From NCBI GenBank assembly GCA_048937405.1, contig JBHLNF010000001.1, positions 987,114 to 1,051,113 on the forward strand: a DNA stretch of 64,000 bases. Direction: 5' to 3'. The translations under genes and the position numbers were made by a program. Under the pieces are notes generated by a model, which searched no databases, was not told the origin of the DNA, and saw nothing but the letters and a program-made list of their open reading frames with translations. This stretch comes from Promethearchaeota archaeon. GTDB lineage: Archaea > Asgardarchaeota > Lokiarchaeia > Sigyniarchaeales > SOKP01. How positions within the stretch are numbered: position 1 is the first letter of the stretch; every line of letters starts with the position of its first letter. Shown piece by piece: positions 9,292 through 12,720 of this stretch.

Positions 9292-9352
9292 GAATATAAA
9301 TTTAAACTCTATTTTGTTCAAATAAGCAATACTTTTCTATTAAATTAGAGTT

Positions 9353-9598
9353 CTATCTTCTTCCCCGAATTTTACGAGCTTCTCGTTCTACTTCGCGTAG
9401 AATTACGATGTCATCCATCCGAATTGGACCTTTCACATTACGAGTGAGAATTCGATTTTTATCTGGACCTTCAAGAATACGAACTTTAATTTGAGTAATT
9501 TCCCCCGTGAGACCAGTACGTCCAATTACTTGAATTACTTGAGCTGGAATAGATTGATCTTGAACTGTAACACCTTTTGATTTGTCTAATTTTACCAA
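9353..9598 (-). CDS. rps28e: 30S ribosomal protein S28e
   Basis: [18 protein letters not shown]...RNVKGPIR..D...LREVEREAR; TTG start with GGTGA upstream. Confidence 0.96.
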
Positions 9599-9616
9599 AT
9601 ATCATCACCAAAACAA

Positions 9617-9988
9617 TTATTTTTTTATCTCTTCAATTTTTTTAACAACATCATTTAATGCGTTTTCATTTCCAGAGCCGACATTTTCAATAGCAATTGC
9701 ACTTGAAGATACATTGATTCTAATCACATTTCCAAGTTCTTTTTTAGTTGATAAATAACCATAGGGAATTCCTTTCTCTTCACAGAGAAGTGGAATGTGA
9801 AATAAAATTTCTGGAGGAGTTACATCTTCAGCCATAACAACCAATTTTGCTTGAACTCTTTCAATAGATTTAGTTACTTCATTCATACCTTTTCTAATTT
9901 TTGAATCTCTTGTTTCTGCTATTGTTGTTAAAGTATTCTTGAGCTGATTTTTTAACTTTTCAGGTATTTTAAATTTAACATATGAAAT
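9617..9988 (-). CDS. rpl7ae: 50S ribosomal protein L7Ae, probably starting at ATT (9988-9986), 123 aa
   Basis: Frame continues upstream of the tracked ATG through IRKG and SYVKFKIPE, the conserved L7Ae N-terminus; in-frame TGA at 9997-9995; no ATG/GTG/TTG in that stretch. Confidence 0.93.
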   Translation of the reverse strand: MSYVKFKIPEKLKNQLKNTLTTIAETRDSKIRKGMNEVTKSIERVQAKLVVMAEDVTPPEILFHIPLLCEEKGIPYGYLSTKKELGNVIRINVSSSAIAIENVGSGNENALNDVVKKIEEIKK

Positions 9989-9994
9989 CTTTAT

Positions 9995-10036
9995 TCATCT
10001 CCTTCAAATATATTTAATTAAAGATATATTTTCATA
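9995..10036 (-). promoter_or_regulatory. rpl7ae leader: SD-like GGAGATGA plus GA-flanked hairpin (possible kink-turn)
   Basis: mRNA reads UAU-GA-AAAUAUAU-loop(10)-AUAUAUUU-GA-AGGAGAUGA; 8-bp stem closed by GA on both strands; canonical stem weak. Confidence 0.4.
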
Positions 10037-10140
10037 AATCATCGATTTATTATAATGAAACTAATTGGGGAAATTAAATAAAATTTTTCATTTAGGTAAA
10101 AAACCTAAAAATTTTTTTAAAATGAATCGTTTGATAGTTT

Positions 10141-10372
10141 ATGATTATACCTATTCGCTGTTTTTCATGTGGTAAGCTCATAGCTCATGTCTATAAACCT
10201 TACCTTGAGATGATAGAAAAAGGAGAGCCTTCTGAAAAGGCTTTTAAAGAGTTAGGAATCGAGCGATTCTGTTGTAAACGCATGATCGTAAATTAGTAAG
10301 CATTTAAGCTTTCTAAGCGTATGTCATGTGGACCTAATAGATGAACTCCTTAAATTTCCGAGATTGCAATGA
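10141..10372 (+). CDS. rpoN: RNA polymerase subunit Rpo10 (RpoN/RPB10), two exons: 10141-10291 and 10323-10372, 66 aa
   Basis: Joined translation MIIPIRCFSCGKLIAHVYKPYLEMIEKGEPSEKAFKELGIERFCCKRMIVSHVDLIDELLKFPRLQ has the CxxC and CC zinc ligands and the SHVDLID motif; the unspliced frame stops at TAG 10294-10296. Confidence 0.93.
10292..10322 (+). other. 31-nt bulge-helix-bulge type intron in rpoN pre-mRNA
   Basis: Outer helix 10279-10285/10324-10330; central 4 positions 10286-10289/10317-10320 (one U-U); 3-nt bulges 10290-10292 and 10321-10323; inner helix 10293-10301/10308-10316; cuts after the 2nd nt of each bulge restore AGT-CAT (Ser-His). Confidence 0.82.
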
Positions 10373-10395
10373 ACATACACATCTAATAACAAAAT

Positions 10396-11681
10396 TTAAG
10401 AGAAATGATCTAAATATTTTCTTTTGAATTTTATAATCTTTCTATTAAAATTTAGATCCCAAATCTTATTTTCTACTCTCTTCCAATATGAATGTGGCAG
10501 TGTTTCAACACTAAATTCATCACATAATCTCTTAAAAAGATCAAAACTAACACCAAAAAACTCGGCTAATTTAGTTCTAGGTCCAAGATTAATCAACTCA
10601 TCTATGATATCTTTTTTCCCTATTTTTTCACGAAGAACTTCATAAGTATATCTCCCTCCCTTCATTGGATAAAATACTCTTTTTCTTTCCATACTGAATT
10701 CAAATGATTCCATCATAAAGTTAAATAATATTGGACCGATTCTTAAATACCAATGGTCTTTTATATCACAGTTTTTTATCCAAACTTTTTCTCTCCCTGC
10801 AATTTTCTTATTTTTAACTTCATGTCTTAAATTAAATTCTTCCTTAATTTGCTCAAGAAATTGCTTATTTGAATTATGAATTATAGGCGCTCCTTCTTCA
10901 CCATCCCCATCATAAAAGCCGAGTAATACTGACAAAGCCACTTTATACATTAAATTTCTAAAAAAGCCAACTCTTAAACATTTTCCTTCTTTAAAATCTA
11001 AAAATCCCAATTTTATTAAATCCTTAATCATTGGAATACATCCAATTCTAATTCCATATCTTTCTGGATATTCTCCTGATTTTTTTCTTATCCTCCTATC
11101 AATTTTATGTTCAATTTTATTTATAACATGTAATTCATTACGAAATCTCTCAATAACCTTGGAATCCCTCTTTTCTAAAAAAAGGCCAATATGTCCATCC
11201 TTAGAAATAAATCCATCAGCAAGTAACAATCCAAAATAATAACCTTTGTTTGTTGTATTAAGTAATTTAAAGTAATGTTTTTTTAAATTAGGATTATGAA
11301 GATGCCATTGCTGTTGTCGATACTCAAGGAGTTGATTTTTTTCAATATAATTATAAATTAATTCTTTACATTTTTTAATATCTTTATTGCTCAACTTTTT
11401 TGATAAAGATTTGATAAAATCTATTAATTGCTCAACTTTTTTGATAAAGATTTGATAAAATCTATTAATTGATCTTTTGAAAATTTAAAATAGGGATTAT
11501 GCTTTGGACTATTTGAATTCTTTATCCTAAACCGAGTATCTCTTATATATCTAATATGCATACCCAAATATTCAGAAAATTTGTCATATGAAAGTATTTT
11601 TCTATGTATTTTACTAGTTGATACTAATTCTGATATTTCTTTACGTAGATCTTCTATGAAATCTAATGTAGAATATTCCAT
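10396..11681 (-). pseudogene. Two-motif LAGLIDADG homing endonuclease, frameshifted (414 aa if repaired)
   Basis: Motifs YYFGLLLADGFI and VLLGFYDGDG; ORFs 11424-11681 and 10396-11394 fuse in frame (...SLSKKLSNKDIKKCKE...) when one 41-bp repeat copy is removed. Confidence 0.85.
11386..11471. repeat. Perfect 41-bp tandem duplication with ATTG microhomology
   Basis: attgctcaacttttttgataaagatttgataaaatctatta at 11386-11426 and 11427-11467, followed by attg. Confidence 0.97.
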
Positions 11682-11852
11682 AATTGTCTATGAAAATTGA
11701 ACTGATATAGGATTTTTAGTTAGAAAATTAGTTATTCCAATATTTATGATAAATGAGAGTGATTGATTATTAATTTCATCTCTAAAGTGAGACAAAGAAT
11801 CTTAGATATAATATAGATTTAAAATAGGTTTGAAAAATTAGATAAAAATTCT

Positions 11853-11897
11853 ATAGATTTATTCGATGAATTACTTAAATTTCCTCGATTACAATAA
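11853..11897 (+). pseudogene. Orphan duplicate of the rpoN 3' end
   Basis: Encodes IDLFDELLKFPRLQ* versus VDLIDELLKFPRLQ* at 10328-10372. Confidence 0.9.
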
Positions 11898-11936
11898 TAT
11901 AATTATTTATAAATTAATAGAAGTAATAAGCAAGAG

Positions 11937-12119
11937 TTATTGTTTCCCGTAATGGGCAGTCCATCTCGTTTTTCTTGCTTTTTTATTATAATCTAACATT
12001 GATTTACGGCATTTGTTAGTACAAAAGTTCAAGACTGTACCATCTCTCTTTACAAACATGAGACCTCGGCCTATAGGAATATCATAACCACAAAAACTAC
12101 ATTTTTTTACCTTTACCAT
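11937..12119 (-). CDS. rpl24e: 50S ribosomal protein L24e
   Basis: CSFCGYDIPIGRGLMFVKRDG...FCTNKC...RKTRWT; ATG at 12119. Confidence 0.96.
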   Translation of the reverse strand: MVKVKKCSFCGYDIPIGRGLMFVKRDGTVLNFCTNKCRKSMLDYNKKARKTRWTAHYGKQ

Positions 12120-12148
12120 TAGTAACACATATAAAAATTGTTTAAACT

Positions 12149-12547
12149 CTATTCCTTCTTAAATATTTCAGCTTCTCCGTATTTTACAACTTTTAAGTTT
12201 ATTAAAGTCATATCATGAGTAATTTCGTTTCCTCGAACGGTTTTTCTCCTTTTCTGTCCTTTTCTCTGAGGTTTATATCCACTACTTCTTTTTGAGACTA
12301 GTATTTTCTTTTTGACTGGTCCATGAACGCTCTTTCTCATTGGAAAACCACTAGAATCACTTCCACCCATGATTTGAAATTCATAATTTGCGAATCCTAT
12401 CAGACCTCCCTTTATAATATCTCCAATTTTCATTCCTTCAAATCGAAATTTCTTCTCATCAATCTCAATAAGTTTGGATAATCCTTTTCCAGGACCCTCT
12501 TTTCCACCACTAATATTTAGTTTGTATACTATTTTTTCTGAGGACAC
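12149..12547 (-). CDS. rps6e: 30S ribosomal protein S6e
   Basis: GGSDSSGFPMR, G.RRKTVRGN motifs. Confidence 0.96.
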   Translation of the reverse strand: MSSEKIVYKLNISGGKEGPGKGLSKLIEIDEKKFRFEGMKIGDIIKGGLIGFANYEFQIMGGSDSSGFPMRKSVHGPVKKKILVSKRSSGYKPQRKGQKRRKTVRGNEITHDMTLINLKVVKYGEAEIFKKE

Positions 12548-12720
12548 GATGCATCAATATCGAACTTAAAAACGCAAGATTAACTTCTAAAATACATATT
12601 TTCATAAAAATTTTATGAAAAAGTAATATTTTGAATTAATTCCTATAAAATAAAGATAATGAAATTTATTTTAATGAATTACCTATTGTAATTATACAAG
12701 AAATTAATAGATATTCCTAT

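What the first reader, a model, noticed from the sequence alone, without database searches (positions are those of the whole stretch)
10141..10372. A BHB-type mRNA intron splits the core RNA polymerase subunit gene rpoN/rpo10
Seen: an unannotated Rpo10 frame stops at TAG after ...CCKRMIVN, while the missing tail HVDLIDELLKFPRLQ* follows in another frame. The intervening RNA folds as a bulge-helix-bulge: a 7-bp exon-exon helix (10279-85/10324-30), a 4-position central helix (UCGU/GCGU, one U-U mismatch), two 3-nt bulges (AAA 10290-92, AUG 10321-23) and an intron hairpin (UUAG-U-AAGC/GCUU-U-CUAA). Established: the archaeal tRNA-splicing endonuclease EndA cuts after the second nucleotide of each bulge. 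Applying that rule removes exactly 10292-10322 and yields GTA A|GT CAT = V-S-H, the family consensus (RM..SHVDLID), giving 66 aa. The structure-predicted junction and the protein-consensus junction agree independently. Introns in archaeal protein genes are rare (crenarchaeal cbf5 is the classic case). Inference: an essential transcription subunit in an Asgard archaeon depends on mRNA splicing by the tRNA machinery. I cannot check whether this case has already been reported.
Basis: partly seen in the sequence, partly recalled or inferred. Interest (0 to 1): 0.95.

Follow-up and report, generated by a model that had tools for sequence, protein, structure and literature searches.

The report
tRNA-type mini-intron splitting Asgard rpoN
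The only gene for RNA polymerase subunit N (Rpo10) in this Asgard archaeon is broken by a 31-base insert shaped like a tRNA intron, so its messenger RNA almost certainly has to be cut and rejoined by the tRNA-splicing enzymes, and the insert has moved between related species together with neighbouring DNA.

Summary
The genome's single rpoN/rpo10 stops at TAG after 51 codons. Removing 10292-10322 (31 nt) by the bulge-helix-bulge (BHB) cut rule gives a 66-aa protein whose C-terminal part (RMIVSHVDLIDELLKFPRLQ) equals that of intronless orthologues.

- **Distribution:** the same site is interrupted in 10 of 54 species of the genus and in six metagenome alleles, and nowhere else among 399 genomes of the phylum.
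- **Length variants:** inserts of 29, 30 and 31 nt, one with an unrelated hairpin, all give the same junction.
- **Covariation:** five helix pairs show compensatory changes. The Arg codon in the exon helix is CGC in 13/13 intron alleles and 0/40 intronless ones.
- **Selection:** exon 2 is under purifying selection (576 synonymous against 50 non-synonymous codon differences).
- **Machinery:** two EndA paralogues and RtcB are present.
- **Missing:** I could not get RNA-level proof.

New here: the intron is scattered on a neighbour-gene tree (at least 7 changes). Six intron loci keep a displaced native rpoN tail starting 8 nt past the intron site. A free-standing LAGLIDADG endonuclease gene often sits beside it, which suggests homing-like spread.

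This scan has reported similar mRNA mini-introns in other Asgard genomes. The papers I could search describe only crenarchaeal cbf5 as an intron inside an archaeal coding sequence.

The parts
10141..10291 (+). rpoN/rpo10 exon 1 (50 codons plus the first base of the Ser51 codon)
   Evidence: ORF list; Pfam PF01194 positions 1-49/58, E 4e-22; only rpoN in the genome
10292..10322 (+). 31-nt BHB-type intron, with an in-frame TAG at 10294-96
   Evidence: Sequence; same-site inserts of 29-31 nt in 15 other alleles; covariation
10323..10372 (+). rpoN exon 2 (last two bases of the Ser codon, HVDLIDELLKFPRLQ, stop TGA)
   Evidence: Identical protein tail in intronless orthologues; 576 synonymous against 50 non-synonymous codon differences among 14 intron alleles
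10279..10285 (+). 5' strand of the exon-exon helix h (CGCAUGA); pairs with 10324-10330
   Evidence: Six of seven pairs invariant in 13 alleles; Arg codon CGC in 13/13 intron alleles, 0/40 intronless
10286..10289 (+). 5' strand of the central 4-position helix H (UCGU); pairs with 10317-10320
   Evidence: C-G changes to U-A in two alleles and U-G in three; U.U becomes U-G in two
10290..10292 (+). 5' bulge AAA; predicted cut between 10291 and 10292
   Evidence: Sequence. In G016 the bulge is AGA and the spliced codon becomes GGT = Gly, as in its sister species
10293..10316 (+). Intron hairpin h' (UUAG-U-AAGC, loop AUUUAA, GCUU-U-CUAA)
   Evidence: Four of nine pairs have compensatory changes; replaced by an unrelated 9-position stem in the 29-nt alleles
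10317..10320 (+). 3' strand of central helix H (GCGU)
10321..10323 (+). 3' bulge AUG (AAG in most other alleles); predicted cut between 10322 and 10323
   Evidence: Sequence; alignment
10324..10330 (+). 3' strand of the exon-exon helix h (UCAUGUG)
10396..11394 (-). Nuclease part (332 aa) of a free-standing double-motif LAGLIDADG endonuclease gene, convergent with rpoN, 23 nt after its stop
   Evidence: No Pfam hit, but relatives are named DOD-type homing endonuclease and some carry PF14528. AF2 model pLDDT 87. All of the top 23, and nearly all of the top 50, PDB fold matches are LAGLIDADG endonucleases, maturases or inteins
11424..11681 (-). N-terminal part (85 aa) of the same endonuclease gene, cut off by a frameshift
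   Evidence: Intact relatives of 411-494 aa span both pieces
11386..11471 (.). Perfect 41-nt tandem duplication that frameshifts the endonuclease gene
   Evidence: Tandem Repeats Finder: period 41, 2.1 copies, 100% match; sequence
11856..11897 (+). Orphan, displaced native 3' end of rpoN (DLFDELLKFPRLQ-stop) at the ancestral position next to rpl24e
   Evidence: It starts at the codon equivalent to 10331, 8 nt past the intron site, and matches the intronless-type tail 100% over 35 nt

Best explanation
The 31 nt at 10292-10322 are an archaeal bulge-helix-bulge (splicing-endonuclease type) intron in the pre-mRNA of the single rpoN/rpo10 gene.

Inferred mechanism:
1. The transcript folds so that exon sequence CGCAUGA pairs with exon sequence UCAUGUG.
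2. A 4-position helix (UCGU/GCGU) is flanked by two 3-nt bulges, and the rest of the intron forms a hairpin.
3. The genome's hetero-oligomeric EndA cuts after the second nucleotide of each bulge.
4. RtcB joins the exons, giving GTAA|GTCAT and a 66-aa subunit N.
5. Unspliced RNA would give a 51-aa product that lacks the C-terminal helix.

Shown here: the structure and its covariation, the same junction for three intron lengths, selection on both exons, and the presence of the enzymes. Inferred: the cleavage and ligation themselves.

At the DNA level the intron-bearing 3' segment of rpoN has been passed between species of the genus by recombination.
For: **Single essential gene.** There is one rpoN in a 100%-complete genome.

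**Junction.** The spliced product's C-terminal part equals that of intronless orthologues.

**Distribution.** The same site is interrupted in 10 of 54 genus members and in metagenome alleles from Loki's Castle, White Oak River and other samples. None of the other genomes among the 399 sampled from the phylum has it.

**Independence from reading frame.** Introns of 31, 30 (G047) and 29 nt (L058/L060, with an unrelated hairpin) all give the same junction by the BHB rule. A frame-dependent device would not do this.

**Covariation.** 88.8% of cells pair, against 31-49% when slid, and five pairs have double changes.

**Exon helix under selection.** The Arg codon is CGC in 13/13 intron alleles against 0/40 intronless. 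Site identity is 0.92 among intron alleles against 0.74 between intron and intronless alleles (permutation p 0.0005).

**Exon 2 is translated.** There are 576 synonymous against 50 non-synonymous codon differences among 14 intron alleles.

**Cut position.** G016 has a bulge of AGA, which makes the spliced codon Gly, the residue of its sister species G014.

**Machinery.** One EndA paralogue is closest to the A. pernix catalytic alpha subunit, a second paralogue is present, and RtcB is present. Asgard EndA is reported as the broad-specificity (alpha-beta)2 type with the L1 loop (PMC5829648).

**Same architecture elsewhere in the genome.** A tRNA-Gly(GCC) gene carries a 31-nt intron, which read by hand has the same layout. 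The rubredoxin and mevalonate kinase genes carry 29- and 31-nt inserts whose removal by the same rule restores conserved motifs.
Against: - No RNA evidence: no RNA run was listed for this stretch.
- The central helix has only three standard pairs plus U.U in 11 of the 13 alleles counted.
- Thermodynamic folding prefers other local pairings. One of them (U10286-G10323) would move the 3' bulge by one base and break the frame if the enzyme followed it.
- In most alleles the bulges are AAA/AAG, so a symmetric shift of both cuts by one base gives the same product. Only the window allele (AUG) separates Ser from Cys at the junction.
- The intron alleles are related to one another, so the covariation counts are not independent events.
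Confidence: 0.88

Rival explanations
1. This rival concerns why the intron is there. It does not dispute that the intron is spliced. The intron is one part of a homing cassette: an intron, a replacement rpoN tail and a free-standing LAGLIDADG endonuclease gene. The endonuclease would cut intronless rpoN near codon 53-54. The break would be repaired from an intron-bearing donor. The intron would persist because it splits the enzyme's recognition site in the carrier allele.
For: **Endonuclease.** The LAGLIDADG fold and both acidic motifs are present.

**Linkage to rpoN.** The gene lies beside rpoN in every context I looked at: 6 genus genomes and 7 metagenome contigs (5 different alleles).

**Raw association.** On the 46-row tree: intron with endonuclease 5, intron without 4, intronless with endonuclease 3, neither 34.

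**Orphan tails.** Six intron-bearing loci and none of 43 intronless loci keep an orphan native rpoN tail. In the five whose upstream flank I read, it starts at the same codon, 8 nt past the intron site. In the window and in LCGC14 it lies beyond the endonuclease cassette.

**Shared haplotype.** Intron alleles share a haplotype at the site and in the tail, but not in the 5' 129 nt.

**Patchy distribution.** On the neighbour-gene tree the 9 intron taxa need 9 changes, well-supported branches force at least 7, and an AU test rejects one clade at p 3e-5.
Against: - With phylogenetic control the intron-endonuclease link is not significant: 3-4 contrasts go the same way, none the opposite way, p 0.125-0.25.
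- Five intron-bearing genomes lack the endonuclease gene. Three loci have it with an intronless rpoN and no orphan tail.
- The gene is frameshifted in the window and in G001.
- The cleavage site of the enzyme is unknown.
Confidence: 0.3
2. Translational recoding. The ribosome would pass the insert by bypassing (take-off at GUA 10288-90, landing at GUA 10319-21, as in phage T4 gene 60) or by a frameshift. No RNA would be cut.
For: In the window and most alleles a GUA lies in the 3' strand of the central helix. A hop from GUA to GUA would give nearly the same protein (V-C-H in the window, V-S-H in alleles with GUAAGU). A stop codon in a hairpin closely follows the take-off codon.
Against: - The landing GUA is absent in G016, G055, the Ga0315546 allele (L089) and the 29-nt alleles (GCAUAAG, GCAGAGG, GCGGAAG), while RNA pairing is kept there by compensatory changes.
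- Insert lengths of 29, 30 and 31 nt put exon 2 in all three frames relative to exon 1. No single frameshift works.
- A +1 shift in the window would add about 11 residues inside a conserved segment.
- To my knowledge bypassing has not been described in archaea.
Confidence: 0.03
3. Decaying or truncated gene. rpoN would be a pseudogene, or a 51-aa subunit N would suffice, and the downstream tail would be a relic.
For: Public gene calls list only the 51-aa product. The locus shows other signs of recombination and decay: an orphan tail and a frameshifted endonuclease gene.
Against: - This is the only rpoN in a complete genome.
- Exon 2 keeps its protein sequence through many synonymous changes in 14 alleles.
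- The insert and its pairing are conserved with compensatory changes.
- The true relic, the orphan tail at 11856-11897, is a separate sequence.
Confidence: 0.03
4. Assembly or sequencing artefact that inserts 31 nt.
For: 31 is a common k-mer length in assemblers.
Against: The insert is found, with sequence differences and three lengths, in 10 genomes and in 8 contigs from other assemblies (6 further alleles).
Confidence: 0.01

Closest known systems
cbf5 pre-mRNA intron of Crenarchaeota (Watanabe 2002; Yoshinari 2006; Yokobori 2009, PMC2738675)
   Same: A BHB-type intron inside the coding sequence of an essential information-processing gene. It occurs in lineages with a hetero-oligomeric EndA, and gene callers miss it. 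Lineage-specific presence and absence are documented.
   Different: A different gene (rpoN) and a different phylum (Asgard/Promethearchaeota). The insert here is only 29-31 nt. The distribution is much patchier, with at least 7 changes within one genus. There are DNA footprints (orphan tails) of allele replacement. Splicing of cbf5 was shown experimentally; this one was not.
BHB introns of archaeal tRNA genes, including the heavily interrupted tRNA genes of Asgard archaea (PMC11291895; bioRxiv 10.64898/2026.10.13.758758)
   Same: The same motif geometry and the same predicted enzymes. A tRNA-Gly(GCC) gene of this genome carries a 31-nt intron, which read by hand has the same layout: A-rich bulges and a 24-nt inner hairpin.
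   Different: The host RNA is an mRNA, so the cut positions must also keep the reading frame. [quoted passage not shown]
Archaeal rRNA BHB introns that encode LAGLIDADG homing endonucleases (I-DmoI and I-Tsp061I were among the fold matches)
   Same: A BHB intron combined with a LAGLIDADG enzyme at one locus. There is evidence of DNA-level spread.
   Different: Here the endonuclease gene is free-standing. It lies outside the intron, on the opposite strand, about 75 nt away. The intron is far too small to encode anything.
Collaborative homing of an endonuclease-less intron with a neighbouring free-standing homing endonuclease in phages (cyanophage psbA with F-CphI; Aeromonas phage nrd with mobE; recalled from memory, not read here)
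   Same: An intron without its own endonuclease gene lies next to a free-standing endonuclease gene. The proposed logic is the same: the intron interrupts the enzyme's target.
   Different: Those are group I self-splicing introns in phage genomes. This is a protein-spliced BHB mini-intron in a cellular archaeal gene, with a LAGLIDADG rather than a GIY-YIG or HNH enzyme. The target site was not determined here.
BHB element in the Haloferax volcanii HVO_1309 mRNA (PMC7714728)
   Same: An mRNA shown to be an EndA substrate in an archaeon.
   Different: I did not read that it interrupts a coding sequence whose frame depends on its removal.

Membership tests
Archaeal BHB (splicing-endonuclease) intron | [quoted passage not shown] | tested here: met
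   Bulges 10290-92 and 10321-23 flank UCGU/GCGU. Three standard pairs plus U.U in most alleles, and a full 4 bp in G055 and Ga0315546. This is a slightly relaxed form. MFE folding prefers other registers.
Archaeal BHB (splicing-endonuclease) intron | Flanking helices h (exon-exon) and h' (intron) that stabilise the motif | tested here: met
   h has 7 bp, 93% of cells paired. h' has 8-9 positions, 90% paired, with 4 compensatory pairs. RNAalifold finds both.
Archaeal BHB (splicing-endonuclease) intron | Cuts inside the bulges yield a functional joined RNA | tested here: met
   A cut after the second bulge nucleotide restores frame and consensus in alleles with 29-, 30- and 31-nt inserts.
Archaeal BHB (splicing-endonuclease) intron | The host encodes a splicing endonuclease and an RNA ligase | tested here: met
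   Two EndA paralogues with N- and C-terminal domains (L041, L042) and RtcB (L043).
Archaeal BHB (splicing-endonuclease) intron | Excision and exon ligation observed in RNA | not testable with these tools
   No RNA run was listed. No spliced-form contig in the metagenome collection.
RNA polymerase subunit N / Rpo10 (Pfam PF01194) | Match to the family profile over its full length | tested here: met
   Exon 1 matches positions 1-49 of 58, E 4e-22. Exon 2 equals the tail of intronless orthologues that match positions 1-58.
cbf5-type crenarchaeal pre-mRNA intron | Located in cbf5 of Desulfurococcales or Sulfolobales | tested here: not met
   Different gene and phylum. It works like that intron but is not a member of that set.
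Programmed translational bypass (T4 gene 60 type) | Matching take-off and landing codons conserved across alleles | tested here: not met
   The landing GUA is absent in G016, G055, L089, L058 and L060, while base pairing is kept.
Self-splicing group I or II intron | Ribozyme core of hundreds of nucleotides | tested here: not met
   The insert is 29-31 nt. No Rfam match in 9300-12600 at E up to 1.
LAGLIDADG homing endonuclease (the neighbouring gene) | Double alpha-beta-beta-alpha-beta-beta-alpha fold with two LAGLIDADG helices that carry acidic residues | tested here: met
   AF2 model pLDDT 87. Fold matches to bI3 maturase, PI-SceI, I-AniI, I-SceI and I-DmoI at probability 1.0. Motifs LLLADG and YDGDG are conserved. 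The window protein has no Pfam hit, but some relatives carry PF14528.
LAGLIDADG homing endonuclease (the neighbouring gene) | Site-specific cleavage of the empty allele | not testable with these tools
   The target is unknown. It is only inferred from the common start of the orphan tails, 8 nt past the intron site.

The most novel reading that the evidence does not exclude
The rpoN mini-intron may be a mobile partner of a free-standing LAGLIDADG homing endonuclease. The enzyme would cut intronless rpoN a few bases downstream of the intron site. Repair would copy in a cassette made of the intron, a replacement rpoN tail and (sometimes) the endonuclease gene, pushing the native tail aside. The intron would be kept because it splits the enzyme's target in the carrier. 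This would be a first route by which tiny endonuclease-spliced introns enter and spread in archaeal protein-coding genes, in the closest archaeal relatives of eukaryotes.
Probability: 0.3. Interest if true: 0.9.

Novelty: new member of a known kind. Interest (0 to 1): 0.8.

Why it matters
**mRNA splicing in archaea.** In the papers I could search, splicing by the tRNA endonuclease inside an archaeal coding sequence is documented for one gene only, crenarchaeal cbf5. Here an essential core subunit of RNA polymerase in an Asgard archaeon depends on it. The same genome holds more such mini-introns, so splicing of protein-coding transcripts looks like a regular part of gene expression in the archaeal group closest to eukaryotes.

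**Annotation.** Gene callers miss these genes or truncate them. Public calls list a 51-aa RpoN, which distorts annotation and any presence/absence analysis.

**How the intron moved.** The rpoN case is unusually informative about origin:
- very close species differ in carrying the intron;
- the intron alleles share a local haplotype;
- displaced native gene ends mark the DNA joint;
- a homing endonuclease gene sits next door.

Together these make the open question of how archaeal BHB introns arrive directly testable at the bench.

Tried and rejected
- **RNA evidence:** The look-up of sequencing runs listed no RNA holder, so read laying could not be used.
- **Spliced form in metagenome contigs:** 0 hits for the spliced-form pattern.
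- **Spliced protein in the protein collection:** the exact 66-aa spliced protein is not there. Only the 51-aa truncated call is.
- **Genome-wide census of BHB-like folds that join two open frames:** 68,823 loose candidates, then a stricter set of 913. Neither showed an excess at the correct cut offsets over shifted controls. The stricter set recovered rpoN but otherwise AT-rich noise. The census is uninformative; it is not evidence against other introns.
- **ARAGORN on the genome:** it finds only 21 tRNA genes with unreliable intron boundaries. I used it only for the tRNA-Gly example.
- **Rfam:** no match around the locus.
- **Endonuclease gene by sequence:** Pfam and phmmer against PDB gave nothing. 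Fold comparison was needed.
- **Other interrupted rpoN in the phylum:** the weak hits in G087, G238 and G139 are contig-end truncations. Low-scoring hits in five other genomes are full length.
- **G063 second rpoN:** a divergent copy, probably contamination. It is not an intron allele.
- **Frameshift and bypass readings:** rejected; see the rival explanations.
Full report
**Observation.** The + strand ORF 10141..10296 reads MIIPIRCFSCGK...CCKRMIVN and stops at TAG. It matches Pfam RNA_pol_N over profile positions 1-49 of 58 (E 4e-22). The missing end, HVDLIDELLKFPRLQ-stop, lies at 10325..10372 in the +1 frame.

- exon-exon helix CGCAUGA/UCAUGUG (10279-85/10324-30);
- central helix UCGU/GCGU (10286-89/10317-20; U.U, C-G, G-C, U-G);
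- bulges AAA (10290-92) and AUG (10321-23);
- hairpin 10293-10316.

Cutting after the second nucleotide of each bulge removes 10292-10322 and joins GTAA|GTCAT. The product is 66 aa with the C-terminal part RMIVSHVDLIDELLKFPRLQ.

**One gene only, and an exact match to orthologues.** The genome (100% complete, 29 contigs) has one rpoN. The second hit has E about 1. Intronless orthologues of the same genus read ...CCKRMIVSHVDLIDELLKFPRLQ without interruption. So the predicted junction reproduces the orthologous protein, including the length between RM and HVD.

**Distribution.** In 54 species-level genomes of the genus, 48 have an rpoN hit. Ten of those stop matching the profile at position 49-50: G000, G001, G008, G016, G018, G024, G047, G052, G055 and G059. 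All ten carry an insert at exactly this site.

Among 399 genomes sampled from the phylum, no other genome shows an interrupted rpoN. The weak hits were contig-end truncations or full-length divergent genes. Metagenome contigs add six more alleles: Loki's Castle LAZR01002210, SDBS01034266, an ENA contig, Ga0315546, White Oak River WOR8, and Ga0114925, whose 64-nt core equals that of G001.

**Three intron lengths, one junction.** Most inserts are 31 nt. G047 has 30 nt, with a loop one base shorter. L058/L059/L060 carry a 29-nt insert whose hairpin is unrelated in sequence: a 9-position stem and an AGAA loop. It sits between the same central helix and bulges. The three lengths put exon 2 in all three frames relative to exon 1. 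Even so, the BHB cut rule gives GTAA|GTCAT (GTAG|GTCAT in G016) in each of the 14 alleles with a complete exon 2 (the WOR8 contig ends inside exon 2). This argues for a structure-measuring RNA enzyme and against frameshifting.

A GUA-to-GUA ribosomal hop would work in some alleles. It fails in G016, G055, L089 and the 29-nt alleles, where the landing codon is gone but pairing is kept.

**Covariation.** On 13 alleles the proposed structure pairs 88.8% of cells, against 31-49% when the 3' partners are slid by 1-3 columns. Five pairs have changes on both sides (4 of 500 shuffles reach that number; 0 of 500 for the covariation score) (10-allele version). Examples:
- central-helix C-G becomes U-A (G016, G055) or U-G;
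- hairpin A-U becomes G-C (G018, G024);
- hairpin C-G becomes U-A (G008, G059);
- hairpin G-C becomes A-U (G059).

The alleles are related, so these are not all independent events.

**Selection on the exons.** The Arg codon inside the exon helix is CGC in 13 of 13 intron alleles and in 0 of 40 intronless alleles, which use AGA, CGT, CGA or AGG. The 33 nt around the site are 92% identical among intron alleles and 74% between intron and intronless alleles (permutation p about 0.0005).

Exon 2 differs among 14 intron alleles by 576 synonymous and 50 non-synonymous pairwise codon differences. So it is translated in the predicted frame.

In G016 the 5' bulge is AGA. The second bulge base is exonic under the rule, so the codon becomes GGT (Gly). 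That is the residue of its sister species G014.

**Machinery.** The genome encodes two EndA-family proteins with both domains. One (197 aa) is closest to the catalytic alpha subunit of the Aeropyrum pernix heterotetramer. The other (200 aa) is closest to the M. jannaschii enzyme. RtcB is also present. Published work assigns Asgard archaea the (alpha-beta)2 EndA with the L1 loop that confers broad specificity (PMC5829648).

A tRNA-Gly(GCC) gene of this genome carries a 31-nt intron. Read by hand it has the same layout: AAU/AAC bulges and a 24-nt inner hairpin.

**Weak points.**
- No RNA data could be obtained.
- Minimum-free-energy folding does not return the canonical register. In the window it pairs CGUA with UAUG, a pairing lost in the other alleles, whose bulge is AAG. 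In several alleles it pairs U10286 with G10323, leaving a 3-bp central helix. Only the canonical 4-position register with U.U (U-G in two alleles) restores the frame.
- With AAA/AAG bulges, a symmetric one-base shift of both cuts gives the same product. Only the window's AUG bulge separates Ser from Cys at the junction.

**The genome context.** Following earlier first-reader notes of this scan, I read two further cases directly:
- The rubredoxin gene (G000 C7, near 432,996) has a 29-nt insert, GCGU AG|U ... GCGU AA|G. Removing it gives CPVCGVGKDMFEKIEG.
- The mevalonate kinase gene (C17, near 197,212) has a 31-nt insert, GGCG AA|A ... CGCA AU|C. Removing it restores GEHFVVYG.

So rpoN is one of several mRNA mini-introns here. 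Follow-up reports of this scan on other Asgard genomes reached the same kind of verdict. My own automated census was uninformative.

**DNA-level history.** A maximum-likelihood tree of the neighbouring rps6e and rpl24e genes (582 columns, 46 rows) scatters the nine intron-bearing rows. Nine changes are needed, well-supported branches force at least seven, and an AU test rejects a single clade (p 3e-5). Very close pairs differ in carrying the intron: G018/G067, G001/G050-G051, G047/G066 and G016/G014.

Yet intron alleles resemble each other at the site and, more weakly, in the 36-nt tail beyond the exon helix (0.82 against 0.76, p about 0.003). They do not in the first 129 nt.

Six intron-bearing loci keep a second, orphan copy of the rpoN 3' end downstream on the same strand: the window at 11856-11897, LCGC14, G024, G018, G016 and G047. 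None of 43 intronless loci does. The orphan resembles the native tail of the sister species; G016 against G014 has one mismatch. In the five loci whose upstream flank I read, it starts at the same codon, equivalent to 10331 and 8 nt past the intron site. In G047 it is preceded by the last bases of an intron.

So the intron-bearing 3' segment entered these lineages as DNA and displaced the native end.

**The neighbour.** Twenty-three nt after the rpoN stop, on the other strand, lies a 332-aa ORF (10396..11394).
- It has no Pfam hit. Its relatives are called DOD-type homing endonuclease, and a few carry PF14528.
- An AlphaFold model (pLDDT 87) matches almost only LAGLIDADG enzymes. Both motifs (LLLADG, YDGDG) are conserved.
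- Intact relatives are 411-494 aa and include the upstream 85-aa ORF (11424..11681). In the window a perfect 41-nt tandem duplication (11386-11471) frameshifts the gene. In G001 it is frameshifted elsewhere.
- This gene family member lies beside rpoN in all 6 genus genomes and all 7 metagenome contigs (5 different alleles) where I found it. Some of those rpoN genes have the intron and some do not.
- In the window and in LCGC14 the cassette sits between the functional rpoN end and the orphan tail.

This fits a homing-type cassette whose break site is near codons 52-55 and whose recognition site the intron would split. Against it:
- With phylogenetic control the intron-endonuclease association is not significant.
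- Five intron genomes lack the gene.
- Three loci have the gene with an intronless rpoN.

I rate this reading at about 0.3.

**Comparison with the known.**
- The mechanism is that of archaeal BHB introns.
- The closest documented case in a coding sequence is cbf5 of Crenarchaeota (PMC2738675).
- A 2020 study still counted one mRNA with a BHB motif besides its own Haloferax substrate (PMC7714728).
- Papers on Asgard introns that I could find treat tRNA genes only.
- I found no report of an intron in rpoN.

I therefore file this as a new member of a known kind: a BHB pre-mRNA intron. Its unusual features are its small size, its host gene, its lineage, its patchy spread and the endonuclease cassette next to it.

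**Verdict.** Confidence that this is an endonuclease-spliced mRNA intron is 0.88. RNA-level proof is missing.

Noticed in passing
window 11386-11471: A perfect 41-nt tandem duplication frameshifts the free-standing LAGLIDADG endonuclease gene into an 85-aa and a 332-aa ORF. Intact relatives are 411-494 aa.
   Followed up: yes
window 11856-11897 (+): An orphan copy of the rpoN 3' end (DLFDELLKFPRLQ-stop) lies at the ancestral position, about 40 nt from rpl24e. Similar orphans occur in LCGC14, G024, G018, G016 and G047, and only in intron-bearing loci.
   Followed up: yes
G000 C7 near 432,996 (+) and C17 near 197,212 (+), outside the window: The rubredoxin and mevalonate kinase genes carry 29- and 31-nt inserts with the same helix-bulge layout. 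Removal by the same rule restores CPVCGVGKDMFEKIEG and GEHFVVYG.
   Followed up: partly
G000 whole genome: ARAGORN finds only 21 tRNA genes in a 100%-complete genome, 15 of them with introns. This suggests that most tRNA genes are interrupted in ways the program cannot model.
   Followed up: no
G000 C7:930160-930894, C10:41740-42572, C20:2884-3729, C25:148161-148847, C28:467922-468446: Five distant paralogues (28-33% identity) of the LAGLIDADG endonuclease lie elsewhere in the genome. Their neighbours were not examined.
   Followed up: no
L034 (G024), L060, L039 (G055), L020 (G012): The rpoN locus is rearranged in several genomes: the endonuclease cassette lies upstream of rpoN in G024, the rpoN-endonuclease block is inverted in L060, and the ribosomal protein genes are reordered in G055 and G012. 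This points to a recombination hot spot.
   Followed up: partly
L037 (G047), about 95-108 nt after the rpoN stop: The orphan tail of G047 is preceded by GCGTAAGTCATGTG, the 3' end of an intron plus the first exon-2 bases. This suggests a second round of insertion into an allele that already had the intron.
   Followed up: no
window 10141-10296: Public gene calls (NCBI, Logan, ENA) list the truncated 51-aa product for this and related genomes. The 66-aa spliced protein is absent from the protein collection.
   Followed up: yes
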